Shown here one piece after another: positions 28,201 to 61,984 of a stretch of 64,000 bases of DNA. The DNA comes from a virus. Positions within the stretch are counted from its first letter, which is position 1, and each line of letters starts with the position of its first letter. The stretch lies in the IMG/VR virus record IMGVR_UViG_3300008459_000008, positions 42,240 through 106,239 of that record. The stretch is one strand, 5' to 3'. Position numbers and translations under genes: made by a program. A model generated the notes under the pieces. That model did no database searches. It was not told where the DNA came from and was given only the letters and a program-made list of their open reading frames with translations.

Positions 28201-28695
28201 ATGAACGCTTATACCCAAGAGGAAATTGATAGGATTAATAAAGTCAAAGAAACTAATGATAAATTAGAAGAATATTTCCTTCAACGAAGAGAAGAATGGA
28301 ATAATAATCTTTCACCACTTTTTGATGTTATAAAAATGAGTTTAACTACCGAAAATTCTCAGAAAATTTTGGAAGTTCAATCACTTGCATTAAGCTATAG
28401 ACAAGCTTTGAACGAACAAATTTCATTCTTTTTAAATAAAAGAAGTAAAGAAGAAGTAAAAAATAAAAAAATCAGACAAGATAAGTTTGTTTTCTATGCA
28501 ACCGGATTTGGATTGAAAACAAACACTGGTGAAAAATCAATTTTGATAGATGCTCACCTTGCAGAAAATGATAGAAATATATTACTAATCGAAAACCATA
28601 TTGAGTTTTTGAGAAACAGTTCAAAAAATCTTGAAAGTCTTGGATATACTATCAAGAACATTATTGAATTGATGAATTATTTAGGAGGACGATAA
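28201..28695 (+). CDS. uvsY: Recombination mediator UvsY-like
   Basis: Helical 164-aa protein with C-terminal IDAHL...IEFL...LESLGYTIKNIIELMNYLG, like T4-family UvsY. Confidence 0.55.
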   Translation: MNAYTQEEIDRINKVKETNDKLEEYFLQRREEWNNNLSPLFDVIKMSLTTENSQKILEVQSLALSYRQALNEQISFFLNKRSKEEVKNKKIRQDKFVFYATGFGLKTNTGEKSILIDAHLAENDRNILLIENHIEFLRNSSKNLESLGYTIKNIIELMNYLGGR

Positions 28696-29823
28696 GTGTT
28701 CTAAGGCTTTTTCAACCAAATCTCTATAACCTTGATAATCATTATCATTGAGTATGTCATTTAACATAGCCTTCAACAACGTCCTTCTACTTTCAAAACC
28801 AGGATCATAAATGTCTCCACTGGTCGAGGTTAACTCTATACAATTCTTACCTGGTGCATTATGCAATTTACCGTTTTTTTCATTCAATAAAGCTAATGTA
28901 TCCACAAATGGATAAAAGGCAAAATTCCACTTAGTTAATTGAACATTTATGTGTGACAAATAAACCTTGTCATTGTAATTGAAAAATAGTGATTCCAAAC
29001 CATCTGAAACATTTTTATTTTTCATCACCCAACCTTTATCTTTTGCGTAATTTTTGAACTTTATCATATCACTGTCATTTGCACAATATATCCTATCCAT
29101 AAAATATTCAGCAGGACATCCATCTACCTTTTTATCAAGTTTCCATATAAGAGCTCTACCTAAAACTTTATTATCTTGATTTACATAAGCTAATAATTGA
29201 CATACTTCTGGATTCTCTTTATAAATTCCGAAGTATCTCTGACAAACTGTATACCTCATACAAGAAGCACCCAACTGACCTTTATCAGGATAAGCATAAT
29301 TCATAAAATCATAATAGTAAGGAATTTCATCACCACTTATCAATTTGAATTCATTAGAAACTACAACAAATTCTGATTTGTATAAATTTACAAAATCTTC
29401 ATAATCCTTCTGAGTTAATCCTTGAATATGATCTTCGACAAAAGACAAATCTAAATCTTCAATTACATTGGGGTCACTTAGTAATGCTTGAGCAAATCTA
29501 CCAATCCTAATTTGGCCTCTGCCTGAAACATCATAATATTTTGAATTATCTTCATCCCACTGCATGGGTGTTCTTTTAGCTCTTTGATCGGATAAAAATG
29601 AAACCATTTCTGGTTCATTTGTAACATCAATCCAGTTTTGTGGAAGGTCTTTTACAATATAATATTCTTCACCAAAAAGAACATATAATATTTCAGCTAC
29701 TTTACTTTTATCTCTTATCTTATTTAATCTTGATAAAAATTCAGGTGATGCATTCAAATCGTTTTCTAGTATCAAAGAAATGACTTGTTTTTCAAGAATA
29801 AACCCATCAAAATTATTTATCAT
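28681..29823 (-). CDS. Unknown conserved-domain protein (SCM/GRALIW/YPxxDT family, copy 1)
   Basis: LGASCMRY...GRALIW...MDRIY...YPFVDT; start moved to ATG 29823 (MINNFDGFILE). Confidence 0.7.
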   Translation of the reverse strand: MINNFDGFILEKQVISLILENDLNASPEFLSRLNKIRDKSKVAEILYVLFGEEYYIVKDLPQNWIDVTNEPEMVSFLSDQRAKRTPMQWDEDNSKYYDVSGRGQIRIGRFAQALLSDPNVIEDLDLSFVEDHIQGLTQKDYEDFVNLYKSEFVVVSNEFKLISGDEIPYYYDFMNYAYPDKGQLGASCMRYTVCQRYFGIYKENPEVCQLLAYVNQDNKVLGRALIWKLDKKVDGCPAEYFMDRIYCANDSDMIKFKNYAKDKGWVMKNKNVSDGLESLFFNYNDKVYLSHINVQLTKWNFAFYPFVDTLALLNEKNGKLHNAPGKNCIELTSTSGDIYDPGFESRRTLLKAMLNDILNDNDYQGYRDLVEKALEHLSSS

Positions 29824-29873
29824 AAGTTTATATATATTTTTTGTTATATTGAATAATATTCTTACATTTGTAT

Positions 29874-30803
29874 ATGGTAAAATCAATCTTTCTGATAGTT
29901 ATATTATTTGTCACCACAAATTCAAATTGTCAAACTTTTATCCAACCCAACAGCCACTGGCACCGTATGTGGGACTTCGTATCTTGTCCAGGTTTAGGGT
30001 ATGATCACCACAGGTATGTAGGAGACACTCTATTCAACAATAATTCCTATTCCAAAATAGAAAATAAACAATATTCTGTATACTTGGACCAAATGAATGG
30101 GACACAAAATTATTATATTCATCAAAAAAAATCAACTTACTTGAGACAAAGCTTTGACACAATTTTTATTTTTGATGAAGAGTATTCTGAGGATAGATTT
30201 GGGTGGTCTCAAAACCCAAGTGTTGGTGAATTATATTATCTTGGTAAGGTCAAAAATTTTATCTCTCAAAACGATATTAAAGTTTATTCGAGGGTAGATT
30301 CTATTTCAACCGAAATCATACAAGGGCAGGAAACTAAATGGATTTATTCAACTACGAATTTAGATTCTTTAGGCAATCCAATAAATTATTATACCACAAA
30401 ATTTAATTATATTATCAAATTAAACACTTTGATGGGTCCAATAACTGAATGGATAATTCCAAGTACAACTTCTCTTTCTTGTTTTGAGTCATCAATCACC
30501 ACCAAGATAAATTATTCTGGTCTAGATTGTAATGCTGGACTTGATTTTGATTGTGAGACTACAACTCATAGTCACGAAAATAAACTGAATGATATAAAAA
30601 TATATCCAAATCCGATTATTGATTATTTTACAATCACGAATTGCAAAAATAAAATTATTAGTTTGAGAAACACTGATGGTAAACAATTATCTAAGACAAC
30701 GATTATATCTGACAATCATAAGATAGATCTGAAATTTTATCCCAATGGAACGTATTTTATTTTTTTGGATGAAAAATTTTTACAAAGAATTGTAAAAATT
30801 TAA
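29874..30803 (+). CDS. T9SS type A sorting domain-containing secreted protein
   Basis: Signal peptide ending SNC-Q; C-terminal IKIYPNP...IDL..YPNGTYFI...RIVKI; TACATTTG at 29863-29870. Confidence 0.8.
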   Translation: MVKSIFLIVILFVTTNSNCQTFIQPNSHWHRMWDFVSCPGLGYDHHRYVGDTLFNNNSYSKIENKQYSVYLDQMNGTQNYYIHQKKSTYLRQSFDTIFIFDEEYSEDRFGWSQNPSVGELYYLGKVKNFISQNDIKVYSRVDSISTEIIQGQETKWIYSTTNLDSLGNPINYYTTKFNYIIKLNTLMGPITEWIIPSTTSLSCFESSITTKINYSGLDCNAGLDFDCETTTHSHENKLNDIKIYPNPIIDYFTITNCKNKIISLRNTDGKQLSKTTIISDNHKIDLKFYPNGTYFIFLDEKFLQRIVKI

Positions 30804-30833
30804 ACTTTGGTTATTCTACTTATTATAACTCTT

Positions 30834-30987
30834 GTCGATTGAAGTAGTGTAATATAGTTCTCGGAAACTAACGGAATATAAAAAGCACAGACCGCCTGAC
30901 CCTGGCAATAGATCTTACATCATGCTTGTAAGAACGGTAAAGTTGAGGTGAATGCCGTTAATCCTCAGAATTCAATTGAGCCCCGAC
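30834..30987 (+). ncRNA. Candidate structured non-coding RNA with pseudoknot
   Basis: GC-enriched intergenic segment closed by CGATTGAA/TTCAATTG; GAAA- and GCAA-capped hairpins; TCTTACA/TGTAAGA hairpin; ACGGTA/TGCCGT stem whose loop TGAGG pairs with downstream CCTCA; own promoter-like motif and terminator. Confidence 0.65.
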
Positions 30988-30992
30988 CCTCT

Positions 30993-31024
30993 AAAAAAGT
31001 CCGAATTTTTTCGGACTTTTTTTT
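30993..31024 (+). terminator. Intrinsic terminator of the candidate ncRNA
   Basis: AAAAAAGTCCGAA-TTTT-TTCGGACTTTTTTTT. Confidence 0.85.
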
Positions 31025-31044
31025 GTTTTAGTATAAAATTGTTA

Positions 31045-31052
31045 TATCTTTG
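31045..31052 (+). promoter_or_regulatory. Bacteroidota sigma-A-type -7 element
   Basis: TATCTTTG (TAnnTTTG) with TTTG ~20 nt upstream; 22 nt before ATG 31075. Confidence 0.7.
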
Positions 31053-31074
31053 TAACACTAAATCAAAATACAAT

Positions 31075-31950
31075 ATGTCAACATTCCTATTCTCTCGTGG
31101 TTATAAAAAGTATAACAAAGTAGATCTGTTCAAAAAAATTGATGCAGTTGAAATCTTTCGTGAAGGCAGCCAAATCATCACTAAATATTTCAATCGTGTA
31201 GTGAATAATACACCGGTTTCTGACCGTTATGAGGTATTTGACATTCGTTCCTTTATGAAATCTAAAATTGAATTGTTGGAGGCAAATTTCAACATCAGTT
31301 TCTATAATTTCCGTATGAAAGGAGGTATCCAAGAACTCATTCTTCTCTCAGATGAAGTAGAAATCGCTGGTTCTAATTACTATAAAGCTTTCTTTATTCT
31401 TAATTCATCAGACAAATCTCGTCGTCTCAATATGAACCTCGGTCTTTATCAAGCTGATAATGGTGTTTACCTTGTCAATTCCATTAAGAATTTTTCACTT
31501 ACTACCAAACACCTCAAGGGTATTACCGATAAAGCTGAAGTTGCTTCCACACACATTGATGTTGAAACTTTTGACGAACAAATCCAATCCATCCGTTCAT
31601 TGGTAGGGGAAAGAGTGATGATGTCCCAAGTTAGAAATATCATCATCGATAAAGACCAAAAGGTAAACCATAATAAGTTTGACGCACTTAAGAATGTGCT
31701 ACGTTGGAACTATTCTAAAAGTTTTACTAAAGAACAAATTGGTATAATTTTAACACCTAGTGAGAAATTAACTATCAATACATCTAATGACTTCTCTATT
31801 GATGCTTTCACTGTGTTTCTAGCTTATATGAACGTGTTCCGAAACCAAGATTCGTATGTTGTTAGGAAAGAAACTGAGAAGATTTTGAAAATCACACAGT
31901 GCTTCATTCGTGAAGAAAAGTTAGCACAGCTTTTGGATATGTTGGATTAA
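31075..31950 (+). CDS. DUF932-like protein
   Basis: VSDRYEV...ILNSSDKS...NLGLY...KH pattern; start moved to ATG 31075 because the upstream part of the ORF overlaps the ncRNA and terminator. Confidence 0.5.
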   Translation: MSTFLFSRGYKKYNKVDLFKKIDAVEIFREGSQIITKYFNRVVNNTPVSDRYEVFDIRSFMKSKIELLEANFNISFYNFRMKGGIQELILLSDEVEIAGSNYYKAFFILNSSDKSRRLNMNLGLYQADNGVYLVNSIKNFSLTTKHLKGITDKAEVASTHIDVETFDEQIQSIRSLVGERVMMSQVRNIIIDKDQKVNHNKFDALKNVLRWNYSKSFTKEQIGIILTPSEKLTINTSNDFSIDAFTVFLAYMNVFRNQDSYVVRKETEKILKITQCFIREEKLAQLLDMLD

Positions 31951-31971: not shown

Positions 31972-33219
31972 ATGGCATACACAAGAAAAACATCTGATAT
32001 AATTACCTCACACGATTTGGATTATATCCTTCATCAAATGAAGGATAAATCTGAAGTTGCTAGACTACTTATTAAGCAAAGACACCCGATTGAAAATTTA
32101 GTTGATGATCACATTAATTATATTTCGATATCAAGTTCTGATTGTACTAAAATTTCTTACTTAACATCAGAGAGAATTGATGCCCTATTATCCAATGGTG
32201 AAGATCTTTGGACATCTAGTAAAAGATTTCATATCAAACCAGGTGCCTTTATTGGTAAAATATTTAAAAATATCCCACCACGCGAGGTAGAATTATTTTC
32301 TACTTTATTCAGAAATATTCAAACTAAAATAGAAATGGAATTCCGTGTGGTGAGTGGATCGTATATTTACCCCTACTATCATCATTCATCCTACCTAAAT
32401 GAAAATGGTTCATTAGGTGCCTCTTGTATGAAGTATGACCAATGTCAAGACTACTTAGACTTATATACACTGAATTCCAATACGGTTAGTCTTTTAGTTC
32501 TGTTGAATAATAGAAATAAACTCATAGGCAGAGCCTTACTCTGGTCAATTGGAGACACTAAAATTATGGATAGAATTTATACAGTCAATGATGAAAACTA
32601 TCAATACCACTTTAAAAAGTGGGCTGATGATAACGGTTATTGGTATAAAAAAGAACAAAGATGGAATAACACACTTTATTTCGAGCAGAAGGGAAAAGTA
32701 GACTATAAAGAACTTGAAATACAACTTAAGAATTTTGATTTTGAATATTACCCATATATGGATACTTTCAAATTTGTCGATTTGAAGAATGGTGTATTAT
32801 ACAACTATCAGCCAAATGGTGTAAAATTCAATACTATTTCCTCAGCAGAAGGTAAAGTTCAATCAGATAGTATTTATTCAATGTGTGAAAAAACAAAAAC
32901 TTTCCATTCAAGTGATTATATTAATTATGTACCAAATAGAGGAATAAGAGTTTGTGCTGATTTGACTGTTTATTCGGATATCTATGACATTTATATTCTG
33001 AGAGAAGATGCTAGATATGATCAAGATTTGGGTGATTGGATTTATCAAGATGACGATTTAAACAATGATATTTTAATTGAAAAGAAAAAATCTGAAGTTA
33101 AGTCAAACTCACGTTGGGTAGATTTATCAAACGTTCCAATTGAATATCATCTGATTTCGGAGGAAGACAACGAAGAGGTTCCTCCTCCACCACCACAAGA
33201 GGAATATTCACCCTTTTAA
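31972..33219 (+). CDS. Unknown conserved-domain protein (SCM/GRALLW/YPYMDT family, copy 2)
   Basis: LGASCMKY...GRALLW...MDRIY...YPYMDTF. Confidence 0.7.
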   Translation: MAYTRKTSDIITSHDLDYILHQMKDKSEVARLLIKQRHPIENLVDDHINYISISSSDCTKISYLTSERIDALLSNGEDLWTSSKRFHIKPGAFIGKIFKNIPPREVELFSTLFRNIQTKIEMEFRVVSGSYIYPYYHHSSYLNENGSLGASCMKYDQCQDYLDLYTLNSNTVSLLVLLNNRNKLIGRALLWSIGDTKIMDRIYTVNDENYQYHFKKWADDNGYWYKKEQRWNNTLYFEQKGKVDYKELEIQLKNFDFEYYPYMDTFKFVDLKNGVLYNYQPNGVKFNTISSAEGKVQSDSIYSMCEKTKTFHSSDYINYVPNRGIRVCADLTVYSDIYDIYILREDARYDQDLGDWIYQDDDLNNDILIEKKKSEVKSNSRWVDLSNVPIEYHLISEEDNEEVPPPPPQEEYSPF

Positions 33220-60366: not shown

Positions 60367-60451
60367 ATGATTATTTTTATGTTTTTATTTTATATATCAA
60401 AATAAAAACATAAGTTTAATCTTACAAAAATATTAAAATAATACAATTTTA

Positions 60452-61878: not shown

Positions 61879-61984
61879 TGGGCCCTGTTGGATTCGAACC
61901 AACTACCTGCGGTTTATTTCTTCCAAGTGAATAAATACTATTCAAAAATGAGACCGCTGCTCTGACCGATTGAGCTAAGAGCCC
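61879..61984 (-). tRNA. tRNA(CAU), probably Ile2, with a 32-nt insert/intron in the anticodon loop
   Basis: GGGCTCT/AGGGCCC acceptor stem with A73; D-arm AGCTCAATCGGTCAGAGC; anticodon stem GCGGT/ACCGC; CT-CAT then 32 extra nt (61916-61947) then AA; T-arm GTTGG-TTCGAAT-CCAAC; no adjacent encoded CCA. Confidence 0.85.

What the first reader, a model, noticed from the sequence alone, without database searches (positions are those of the whole stretch)
30802..31024. Stand-alone ~155-nt structured RNA with an H-type pseudoknot
Seen: a promoter-like AAACTTT...TATTATAA, then a GC-richer segment closed by CGATTGAA(30836-43)/TTCAATTG(30971-78). Inside are an irregular hairpin capped by GAAA, a CTG-GCAA-TAG hairpin, TCTTACA/TGTAAGA (30913-33), and stem ACGGTA(30934-39)/TGCCGT(30953-58) whose loop TGAGG(30944-48) pairs with CCTCA(30963-67). 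A strong terminator follows. TAACGG near 30869 offers an alternative partner for CCGTTA. The next gene has its own promoter, so this is unlikely to be just a leader. I cannot assign it to a known family. Inference: a phage ncRNA, such as a ribozyme, decoy or antitoxin-like RNA.
Basis: partly seen in the sequence, partly recalled or inferred. Interest (0 to 1): 0.72.

Follow-up and report, generated by a model that had tools for sequence, protein, structure and literature searches.

The report
New structured small RNA of huge phages
This is a real, separately transcribed gene for a roughly 150-base folded RNA with a pseudoknot, conserved in huge freshwater phages of Bacteroidota-type hosts; it matches no known RNA family and its function is unknown.

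Summary
The finding holds, with one stem rewired. Window 30832-~30985 (+) encodes a ~150-nt RNA. I found 18 distinct homologues, all in viral or metagenome contigs. Five phage records were searched whole: one copy each. There was no true match in a pattern scan of 185,579 prokaryote species genomes or a model search of 151 Bacteroidota genomes.

Covariation supports a closing stem P1, hairpin P2b, long-range helix P5 enclosing hairpin P3 and an 18-nt largely conserved loop, hairpin P4 (TGAGG/CCTCA), and a pseudoknot between the P4 loop (CCGTT) and AACGG upstream. On the model alignment, 86.8% of cells pair against 71.9% in shuffles, and 19 pairs change on both sides.

A conserved AAACTT-N16-TATAAT promoter and a terminator flank the gene. 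The flanking genes differ between lineages, so it is not a leader.

Rfam 15 gives no match. Contigs from three independent metatranscriptomes cover this stretch. One contig closes on itself as a 150-nt cycle, which hints at an end-joined, possibly circular, form.

Function is unknown. My best guess is a stable trans-acting RNA that binds a protein or ligand. The scan also flagged a relative on another genome (e1-5966931).

The parts
30802..30829 (+). Promoter-like element: AAACTT (30802-07), 16-nt spacer, TATAAC (30824-29). It ends 5 nt before the P1 stem.
   Evidence: The same AAACTT-N16-TATAAT/TATAAA layout precedes the RNA in 8 relatives (sequences). In this phage it stayed with the RNA after a 0.9-kb gene was inserted upstream. 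The pattern AAACTT-N15-18-TATAAW occurs 4 times elsewhere in the window against 0.81 expected. That it works as a promoter is inferred.
30832..30985 (+). The structured RNA core. The ends are approximate: 5' about 30832, 3' about 30979-30987.
   Evidence: Covariance models R1 and R2 match 30831-30990 at 163-167 bits. RNA-library contigs cover 30832-30979, 30848-30984 and 30856-30987. G-U pairs lie on the + strand.
30835..30843 (+). P1 5' strand (TCGATTGAA); pairs with 30971-30979.
   Evidence: All 8 modelled pairs change on both sides and 79.9% of cells pair. The mean best stem is 5.9 against 4.7 in shuffles, with a shuffle maximum of 5.3.
30844..30855 (+). J1/2, with the near-invariant motif (A/G)T(A/G)GTGTAA. 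GTGT 30847-50 could pair with GCAC 30885-88 (P2).
   Evidence: The motif is invariant in 17 of 18 sequences, so the pairing is neither supported nor refuted.
30856..30869 (+). P2b hairpin: AGTT, loop CTCGGA, AACT.
   Evidence: 93.1% of cells pair. The inner pair is U-A in 9 sequences, C-G in 6, G-C in 1 and U-G in 1.
30870..30874 (+). Pseudoknot 5' strand AACGG; pairs with CCGTT 30955-59 in the P4 loop.
   Evidence: 83.9% of cells pair; the middle pair is G-C in 15, U-G in 2 and C-G in 1. L051 has GCCAT/ATGGT and L091 has CCGT/ACGG at the same place.
30891..30894 (+). P5 5' strand ACCG; pairs with CGGT 30935-38.
   Evidence: Nine different strand pairs keep this helix across relatives, for example ACTGT/ACGGT, ACATTGT/ACGATGT, TACTATT/GATAGTA, CACTAC/GTAGTG and ACACTAT/GTAGTGT. 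The mean best stem is 5.8 against 4.1 in shuffles, with a maximum of 4.8 in 2000 shuffles.
30895..30912 (+). Largely conserved asymmetric internal loop CCTGACCCTGGCAATAGA; the CCCTGG..ATAGA part is the near-invariant portion.
   Evidence: CCCTGG and ATAGA are invariant or nearly so in 17 of 18 sequences. The CTG/TAG mini-hairpin predicted by RNAalifold does not vary.
30913..30933 (+). P3 hairpin: TCTTACA, loop TCATGCT, TGTAAGA.
   Evidence: 93.7% of cells pair and three pairs have 5-9 double changes each. Positions 1, 2, 5, 6 and 7 of the loop are invariant in 17 of 18 sequences; L091 differs.
30935..30938 (+). P5 3' strand CGGT.
30944..30967 (+). P4 hairpin TGAGG/CCTCA with a 14-nt loop that holds the pseudoknot 3' strand CCGTT (30955-59).
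   Evidence: 100% of cells pair. The outer pair is U-A in 15 sequences, U-G in 2 and A-U in 1; the A-U case is L091 with AGAGG/CCTCT.
30971..30979 (+). P1 3' strand (TTCAATTGA).
30980..30992 (+). C-rich, variable linker between P1 and the terminator. It may be partly or wholly absent from the mature RNA.
   Evidence: It varies in sequence and length among relatives. The RNA-library pieces end at 30979, 30984 and 30987, which is only a hint.
30993..31025 (+). Intrinsic terminator: 13-bp stem, loop TTTT, then a T run.
   Evidence: Terminator scan. A comparable hairpin plus T run follows the core in nearly all relatives, with unrelated stem sequences.
31046..31077 (+). Separate host-type promoter box TATCTTTG (31046-53) and the ATG (31075) of the downstream DUF932-like gene. 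This is not part of the RNA.
   Evidence: The box is conserved as TA(T/C)CTTTG in relatives. The same box precedes the gene in phages that lack the RNA. Reading TAnnTTTG as the Bacteroidota -7 box is from my own knowledge.

Best explanation
This is a gene for a stable, roughly 150-nt structured RNA of a previously undescribed family, carried once per genome by some huge (about 0.25-0.5 Mb) freshwater phages with Bacteroidota-type hosts.

Shown:
- It is conserved.
- It folds into a four-helix junction: P1 clamps the two ends, and P2b, P5-P3 and P4 are the arms.
- The junction is locked by a pseudoknot between the P4 loop and the strand just 3' of P2b.
- Long unpaired stretches are almost invariant.
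- In the window's lineage it has its own promoter-like element and a terminator.
- It travels independently of its neighbours.

Inferred:
- Transcription starts a few bases before P1 and ends at the terminator.
- The 3' tail is then trimmed back towards P1.
- The compact fold acts in trans. It most likely offers its invariant unpaired core as a specific binding surface for a host or phage protein, or a small ligand, as a decoy, sponge or RNP scaffold. It probably does not act by antisense pairing or by controlling the next gene.

My confidence that it is a real trans-acting structured RNA gene is about 0.85. My confidence in the binding-surface mechanism specifically is about 0.35. The confidence figure of this field is a compromise between the two.
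For: - Homologues: 18 distinct sequences score 99-172 bits to the covariance model, plus one distant member at 41-46 bits.
- Copy number and range: one copy in each of G000-G004. No true match in a pattern scan of 185,579 prokaryote species genomes or in 151 genomes of the phylum.
- Covariation: 86.8% of cells pair against 71.9% in shuffles. 19 pairs change on both sides. The covariation score is 0.427 against 0.151, reached by 0 of 500 shuffles. Sliding the partners gives at most 44% paired.
- P5 was tested separately.
- RNAalifold independently recovers P1, P2b, P3 and P4.
- Strand: the fold z-score is -2.65 on + and -0.90 on -, and the G-U pairs are on +.
- Independence from neighbours: the upstream genes differ. 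They are a divergent paralogue gene, a T9SS-tail gene, an SPFH gene, a DUF6782-like gene and small ORFs.
- In one 476-kb phage the DUF932-like gene lies 47 kb from the RNA.
- Expression: contigs from three independent RNA libraries cover 30832-30987. Two are bounded by sequencing adapters, so they come from short inserts.
Against: - No partner protein or ligand is identified.
- The RNA sits directly upstream of the DUF932-like gene in many lineages, so a functional link to that gene is not excluded.
- Three near-complete related phages (G006-G008) show no homologue, so it is dispensable or replaceable.
- The RNA-library evidence rests on assembled contigs, which by themselves cannot prove transcription, strand or exact ends.
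- In several lineages no promoter is evident and the RNA abuts or overlaps the end of an upstream ORF. There it may be cut out of a longer transcript.
Confidence: 0.55

Rival explanations
1. It is a self-processing or enzyme-joined circular RNA. The RNA is released from its transcript at both ends next to P1. The ends held together by P1 are then joined by the RNA itself (a ribozyme) or by a phage or host RNA ligase. The result is an exonuclease-proof circle, and that circle is the active form.
For: - One metatranscriptome contig (run X18) reads 30895-30979, then two letters, then 30832-30924. The same 30 nt stand at both ends, so it is a closed cycle of 150 nt.
- The junction falls exactly at the outer ends of P1.
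- In several lineages the RNA starts at or inside the end of an upstream ORF, so its 5' end would need processing.
- Invariant junction nucleotides plus a pseudoknot are typical of ribozymes (my own knowledge).
- Among records at least 90% complete, Rnl2-type ligase genes (PF09414) are in 3 of 3 with the RNA and 0 of 3 without it.
- A bacterial ncRNA with both linear and circular forms is on record: DucS (PMC10504365, abstract seen).
Against: - There is only one such contig, from one run. A reverse-transcriptase template switch on an abundant small RNA would give the same cycle.
- The two other libraries give pieces that run 5-8 nt past the junction, to 30984 and 30987.
- No known self-cleaving ribozyme family matches.
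- No RtcB or splicing endonuclease gene is found in the phages.
- The Rnl1-type ligase does not track the RNA.
- The ligase profile has n = 6, two of the negatives are close kin, and an incomplete record has the ligases without a detected RNA.
Confidence: 0.2
2. It is a terminator-proximal 3'-end element or a 3'UTR-derived regulatory small RNA. The fold protects the transcript end, or a C-rich tail or loop base-pairs with target mRNAs.
For: - The core is followed within 5-20 nt by an intrinsic terminator in nearly all members.
- In about half of the lineages it directly follows a co-directional ORF.
- The linker after P1 is C-rich in the window's group.
Against: - In the window's group the upstream gene is on the other strand, so there is no mRNA to protect.
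- The conserved parts are the folded core and its internal loops. The linker varies in sequence and length.
- Such elaborate covarying tertiary structure is more than a 3' stabiliser needs.
Confidence: 0.1
3. It is a tRNA-like or Y-RNA-like module that engages RNA repair, quality control or translation factors such as Ro60, a CCA-adding enzyme, RNase P or a synthetase.
For: - The layout resembles a cloverleaf: a closing stem plus three arms, with a tertiary pairing between the region after arm 1 and the loop of arm 3.
- RNA-metabolism genes lie nearby in some phages: an HD domain, a cytidylyltransferase and an Rnl1-type ligase in L012; a weak poly(A)-polymerase head in L018; a Glu/Gln-tRNA synthetase in L052.
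Against: - ARAGORN and the Rfam tRNA, tmRNA and Y RNA models find nothing here.
- A TROVE/Ro60 gene is in only 1 of 5 RNA-bearing records.
- The neighbouring RNA-metabolism genes are not conserved neighbours.
- There is no conserved CCA-like 3' end.
Confidence: 0.07
4. It is a cis-acting leader or riboswitch for the downstream DUF932-like gene.
For: The RNA lies directly upstream of that gene in the window's group, in L041 and in L051, and about 3 kb upstream in L052.
Against: - A strong terminator and a separate conserved host-type promoter box stand between them.
- The terminator does not overlap P1.
- Seventeen relatives' loci have the gene with that promoter and no RNA in front.
- In G003 the two are 47 kb apart.
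Confidence: 0.03

Closest known systems
phi29-type packaging RNA (pRNA, Rfam RF00044)
   Same: Both are phage-encoded, separately transcribed structured RNAs of about 120-170 nt. In both, the 5' and 3' ends pair in a helix, there is a multi-helix junction, and two loop/strand segments show covarying complementarity. In pRNA that complementarity was first read as a pseudoknot and later shown to act between molecules (my own knowledge).
   Different: There is no Rfam match. The phages here are huge, with T4-like recombination genes such as UvsY, not small phi29-like phages. Nothing links this RNA to packaging. The complementarity here can form within one molecule; whether it forms in cis or in trans was not tested.
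T4 'species 1 and 2' (RNA C / RNA D) stable RNAs
   Same: These too are small stable non-coding RNAs of unknown function encoded by a large lytic phage (my own knowledge).
   Different: The T4 RNAs lie in the tRNA cluster and mature with the tRNAs. Here there is no adjacent tRNA, and blastn against 50,697 phage records gives nothing.
Junction-plus-pseudoknot riboswitch aptamers (for example SAM-I, THF)
   Same: Both have a closing P1, several arms, a loop-to-junction pseudoknot and invariant unpaired nucleotides.
   Different: No expression platform overlaps P1, the terminator looks constitutive, no regulated gene follows, and no Rfam riboswitch model matches.
DucS of Bacillus altitudinis (a linear and circular ncRNA; PMC10504365)
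   Same: It is a bacterial-world small non-coding RNA reported in both linear and circular form (abstract seen). Here one RNA contig closes on itself.
   Different: There is no sequence relation, this RNA is phage-encoded, and circularity rests on a single assembled contig.
6S RNA
   Same: Similar size, paired ends, and a stand-alone gene with promoter and terminator.
   Different: 6S is a long rod with a central bubble. This RNA is a branched junction with a pseudoknot, and no 6S model matches.

Membership tests
Any Rfam 15 family (4227 models) | A match at the family's gathering score | tested here: not met
   The whole window yields only a tRNA at 61879-61984. In the region up to E = 10 there are only terminator-driven hits far below gathering score. 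Six homologous loci give no consistent family.
H-type pseudoknot (structural motif) | The loop of a hairpin pairs with a strand outside it, and both helices are supported | tested here: met
P4 pairs in 100% of cells, with one compensatory and two wobble changes. The loop-to-upstream helix pairs in 83.9% of cells, with compensatory changes in L051 and L091.
Riboswitch / cis leader | An aptamer coupled to an expression platform that controls the gene downstream | tested here: not met
   The terminator is separate from P1, the gene has its own promoter, the gene occurs without the RNA in 17 relatives' loci, and the RNA occurs in other contexts.
6S RNA | An extended rod with a central bubble, and a match to the 6S models | tested here: not met
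   The covariation-supported structure is branched, and there is no Rfam 6S hit.
tRNA / tmRNA / tRNA-like | A cloverleaf with T- and D-loop signatures, detected by ARAGORN or Rfam | tested here: not met
Y RNA / YrlA | Co-occurrence with Ro60 (TROVE), a Ro-binding stem, and an Rfam match | tested here: not met
   TROVE is in 1 of 5 RNA-bearing records and lies far from the RNA. There is no Rfam match. Binding to host Ro60 is not testable here.
Known self-cleaving ribozyme classes (hammerhead, twister, hairpin, HDV-like, pistol, hatchet and others) | A match to the class model | tested here: not met
   No hit up to E = 10.
Ribozyme (any, including new) | Self-cleavage or self-ligation activity | not testable with these tools
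   There is only an indirect hint: the closed 150-nt cycle in one RNA contig.
Circular RNA | A covalent 3'-5' junction present in RNA but not in DNA | tested here: inconclusive
   One contig in one RNA run joins about 30979 to about 30832. Whether the joined form stands in DNA runs was not given, and no raw reads were available.
Stand-alone small RNA gene | Its own promoter, an intrinsic terminator, independence from neighbours, and a discrete transcript | tested here: met
   The promoter-like motif is conserved in 8 relatives, there is a terminator, the contexts change, and short RNA-library pieces cover the core. The transcript ends are only hinted at.

The most novel reading that the evidence does not exclude
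A DNA-encoded phage RNA whose ends, clamped by P1, are joined into a 150-nt circle, either by its own catalytic core or by the phages' Rnl2-type ligases. That would be a new class of circular structured RNA, or a new ribozyme, in huge phages, and possibly a natural substrate for phage RNA ligases whose targets are unknown.
Probability: 0.2. Interest if true: 0.9.

Novelty: categorically new. Interest (0 to 1): 0.7.

Why it matters
Huge phages carry much unexplained non-coding sequence. Very few phage-encoded structured RNAs with riboswitch- or ribozyme-grade architecture are known outside tRNAs, tmRNA, pRNA and self-cleaving motifs.

This RNA has a well-defined fold supported by covariation, its own transcription unit, a single copy per genome, and signs of accumulation in lake metatranscriptomes. 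It is therefore a concrete, testable candidate for a new RNA function in phage infection, such as a decoy against a host factor, an RNP component or a catalyst.

If the end-joined form is real, it would also give phage RNA ligases a natural substrate.

Tried and rejected
- blastn of the region against 50,697 phage records gave no match.
- The pattern GTTCTCGGAAACTNACGG hit three coding regions (L006-L008) that are not homologues.
- The genome contigs pattern scan gave 7 hits, none confirmed by the model. The model found nothing in 151 genomes of the phylum.
- P2 (GTGT/GCAC) is invariant, so it is uninformative.
- A crude best-stem test for the pseudoknot over a wide 24-nt window was not significant: 5.2 against 4.7, with a shuffle maximum of 5.5. 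The position-specific counts were used instead.
- The model alignment puts P5 one column out of register for the L012 group, which lowers that helix to 69%. P5 was therefore tested separately.
- The Rnl1-type ligase next to the RNA in L012 looks like coincidence. It is 117 kb away in G003, absent from G001, and present in phages without the RNA.
- TROVE, RtcB and tRNA splicing endonuclease genes show no association.
- An apparent tRNA 3' end upstream of the L091 copy was confirmed by neither ARAGORN nor Rfam.
- In the RNA runs no contig covers the flanking genes.
- X19 and X20 give an identical contig and may be one data set, so I count them once.
- The DUF932-like gene gave no PDB, Pfam or NCBIfam match. 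The only lead is from the protein atlas.
- Literature searches found no description of this RNA.
Full report
**Where it lies.** The window is bases 42240-106239 of a 106-kb IMG/VR virus record estimated to be 42% complete. Nearby genes include a UvsY-like mediator, a PD-(D/E)XK exonuclease, a metallophosphoesterase and glycosyltransferases. There is also an ORF with a type IX secretion C-terminal sorting domain. Together with TAnnTTTG promoter boxes, this points to a large phage of a Bacteroidota host; reading TAnnTTTG as the Bacteroidota -7 box is my own knowledge.

**The observation.** On its own, the + strand folds better than shuffles (z = -2.65). The - strand does not (z = -0.90). A 13-bp terminator with a T run follows at 30993-31022.

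**Homologues.**
- The downstream protein led to two syntenic loci. There the RNA stretch is better conserved than its flanks and already shows compensatory changes.
- Pattern scans of viral and metagenome contigs, checked with nhmmer and then with a covariance model, gave 17 distinct sequences at 99-172 bits.
- A search of whole phage records added one distant member at 41-46 bits.
- The five records G000-G004 hold exactly one copy each, including 464-kb and 476-kb genomes rated 97-98% complete.
- Three near-complete related phages show none.
- A pattern scan of one genome for each of 185,579 prokaryote species gave only chance hits. A model search of 151 genomes of the phylum gave nothing.
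- As far as searched, the family is confined to these phages.

**Structure.** On the model-based alignment of 18 sequences, with the pseudoknot written in, 86.8% of cells form standard pairs against 71.9% in shuffles. Nineteen of 33 pairs change on both sides. The covariation score is 0.427 against 0.151, reached by 0 of 500 shuffles. Sliding the 3' partners by 1-3 columns drops pairing to 33-44%.

By helix:
- **P1** (30835-43 / 30971-79): all eight modelled pairs covary.
- **P2b** (30856-59 / 30866-69): 93% of cells pair and three pairs covary.
- **P3** (30913-19 / 30927-33): 94% of cells pair and three pairs have 5-9 double changes each.
- **P4** (30944-48 / 30963-67): always paired. It is nearly invariant, but has two U-G changes and one full U-A to A-U swap.
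- **Pseudoknot** (30870-74 / 30955-59): 84% of cells pair. L051 has GCCAT/ATGGT and L091 has CCGT/ACGG in place of AACGG/CCGTT.
- **P5** (30891-94 / 30935-38): a long-range helix I had not been told of. It is kept through nine different strand pairs. The mean best stem is 5.8 bp against 4.1 in shuffles, and none of 2000 shuffles exceeds 4.8.

P5 encloses P3 and an 18-nt, largely conserved, one-sided loop (CCTGACCCTGGCAATAGA). RNAalifold on the same alignment independently returns P1, P2b, P3 and P4.

Its two strands belong to P5 and to the pseudoknot. The net fold is a four-helix junction closed by P1 and locked by a loop-to-junction pseudoknot. J1/2 (GTGTAA), the P3 loop and the P5 internal loop are almost invariant.

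**A gene of its own.**
- Eight members of the window's group share AAACTT, 16 nt, then TATAAT or TATAAA, ending 5 nt before P1.
- In most of those phages the upstream gene is divergent, so the RNA needs its own promoter.
- In the window's phage a T9SS-tail gene has been inserted between that divergent gene and the RNA. The motif stayed with the RNA.
- The motif recurs 4 times in the window against 0.81 expected.
- Nearly every member is followed by a terminator whose stem sequence is unrelated between lineages.
- Other lineages carry the RNA behind quite different genes, often abutting or overlapping the stop codon.
- The DUF932-like gene downstream (family lead) keeps its own TAnnTTTG box. 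In 17 relatives' loci it stands without any RNA in front. In one phage it lies 47 kb from the RNA.
- A leader or riboswitch role is therefore very unlikely.

**Expression hints.** Sixteen DNA runs, nearly all from freshwater or lake metagenomes, hold the stretch, and three to four metatranscriptome runs hold a small share of it. When laid on 30500-31400, each RNA run contributes a single contig that lies on the RNA:
- 30848-30984, identical to the window, with adapter sequence on both sides.
- 30856-30987, a relative, with adapters on both sides. It appears in two runs that may be one data set.
- A 180-nt contig that reads 30895-30979, then two letters, then 30832-30924. The same 30 nt stand at both ends, so it is a closed cycle of 150 nt whose seam lies at the outer ends of P1.

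Contigs cannot prove transcription, strand or ends. Even so, short inserts that coincide with the predicted RNA in separate studies fit a small, stable, abundant RNA.

The cycle could be a circular or head-to-tail RNA, or a template-switch product. At a mean word depth of about 5.6 the junction words still had to be seen more than once if the assembler drops single words. That last point is my recollection of the Logan pipeline and is not checked.

**Comparison with known RNAs.** Rfam 15 gives nothing on the window, on the region at E up to 10, or consistently on six homologous loci. ARAGORN finds nothing.

The nearest analogies are functional rather than familial:
- phi29 pRNA, a stand-alone phage RNA with paired ends, a junction and covarying loop complementarity.
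- The T4 species 1 and 2 stable RNAs.
- Junction-plus-pseudoknot aptamers.
- For the possible circle, DucS (PMC10504365).

Literature searches found no description of this RNA.

**Function.** No gene is a constant neighbour.
- Rnl1-type ligase, Ro60/TROVE, RtcB and splicing endonuclease genes do not track the RNA.
- Rnl2-type ligase genes (PF09414) are present in the three near-complete phages that have the RNA and absent from the three that lack it. The sample is six, two of the negatives are close kin, and one half-complete record has the ligases without a detected RNA. I treat this as a lead only.

I therefore commit, with modest confidence, to a stable trans-acting RNA whose invariant unpaired core is a specific binding surface for a protein or ligand. 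A self-processing or ligase-joined circular RNA is the main rival and also the most novel reading.

**Limits.**
- The alignment has only 18 sequences, several of them close kin, and part of it was fitted to the model.
- The search patterns required parts of P4 and of the loops, which inflates their apparent invariance. Members found through other patterns and through the model still keep them.
- No raw reads were available.

Noticed in passing
window 61879-61984 (-): A tRNA gene (Rfam 57.9 bits, anticodon CAT) has about 32 extra nt in the anticodon loop just after the anticodon, like a short intron. ARAGORN does not call it. No splicing endonuclease gene was found in the phage records searched.
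   Followed up: partly
window 29868-30803 (+): An ORF with a T9SS C-terminal sorting domain (Por_Secre_tail, E = 3.8e-8) is an insertion specific to this phage. Relatives have the RNA directly beside the divergent 401-aa gene, with no such ORF.
   Followed up: partly
window 28681-29886 (-) and 31972-33219 (+): These are two paralogous genes of unknown function (about 27% identity; no Pfam, PHROG, NCBIfam or PDB match). They flank the RNA and the DUF932-like gene and are followed by a PD-(D/E)XK exonuclease. The module is conserved in L051 and L052.
   Followed up: partly
window 21944, 25234, 36357 (+) and 60389-60417 (-): The pattern AAACTT-N15-18-TATAAW occurs 4 times against 0.81 expected. 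It may be a phage promoter class shared with the RNA gene and distinct from the host-type TAnnTTTG boxes.
   Followed up: no
phage records G001, G003, G009 against G006-G008: Rnl2-type RNA ligase genes (PF09414) are in 3 of 3 near-complete records with the RNA (2-3 copies each) and in 0 of 3 without it. The half-complete G005 has 5 copies and no detected RNA.
   Followed up: partly
L091 1380-1440: A direct repeat of about 33 nt (GTATATGGAAGT..AACGCAAAACAG) lies some 60-120 nt upstream of the distant RNA homologue in the 508-kb phage. That copy has no evident terminator and abuts a convergent ORF.
   Followed up: no
window 30891-30894, 30934-30938, 30870-30874, 30955-30959: In the window's group only, the two ACGG-type and two CCGT-type segments could pair in swapped combinations (an alternative fold). 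This is not conserved in the other groups.
   Followed up: partly
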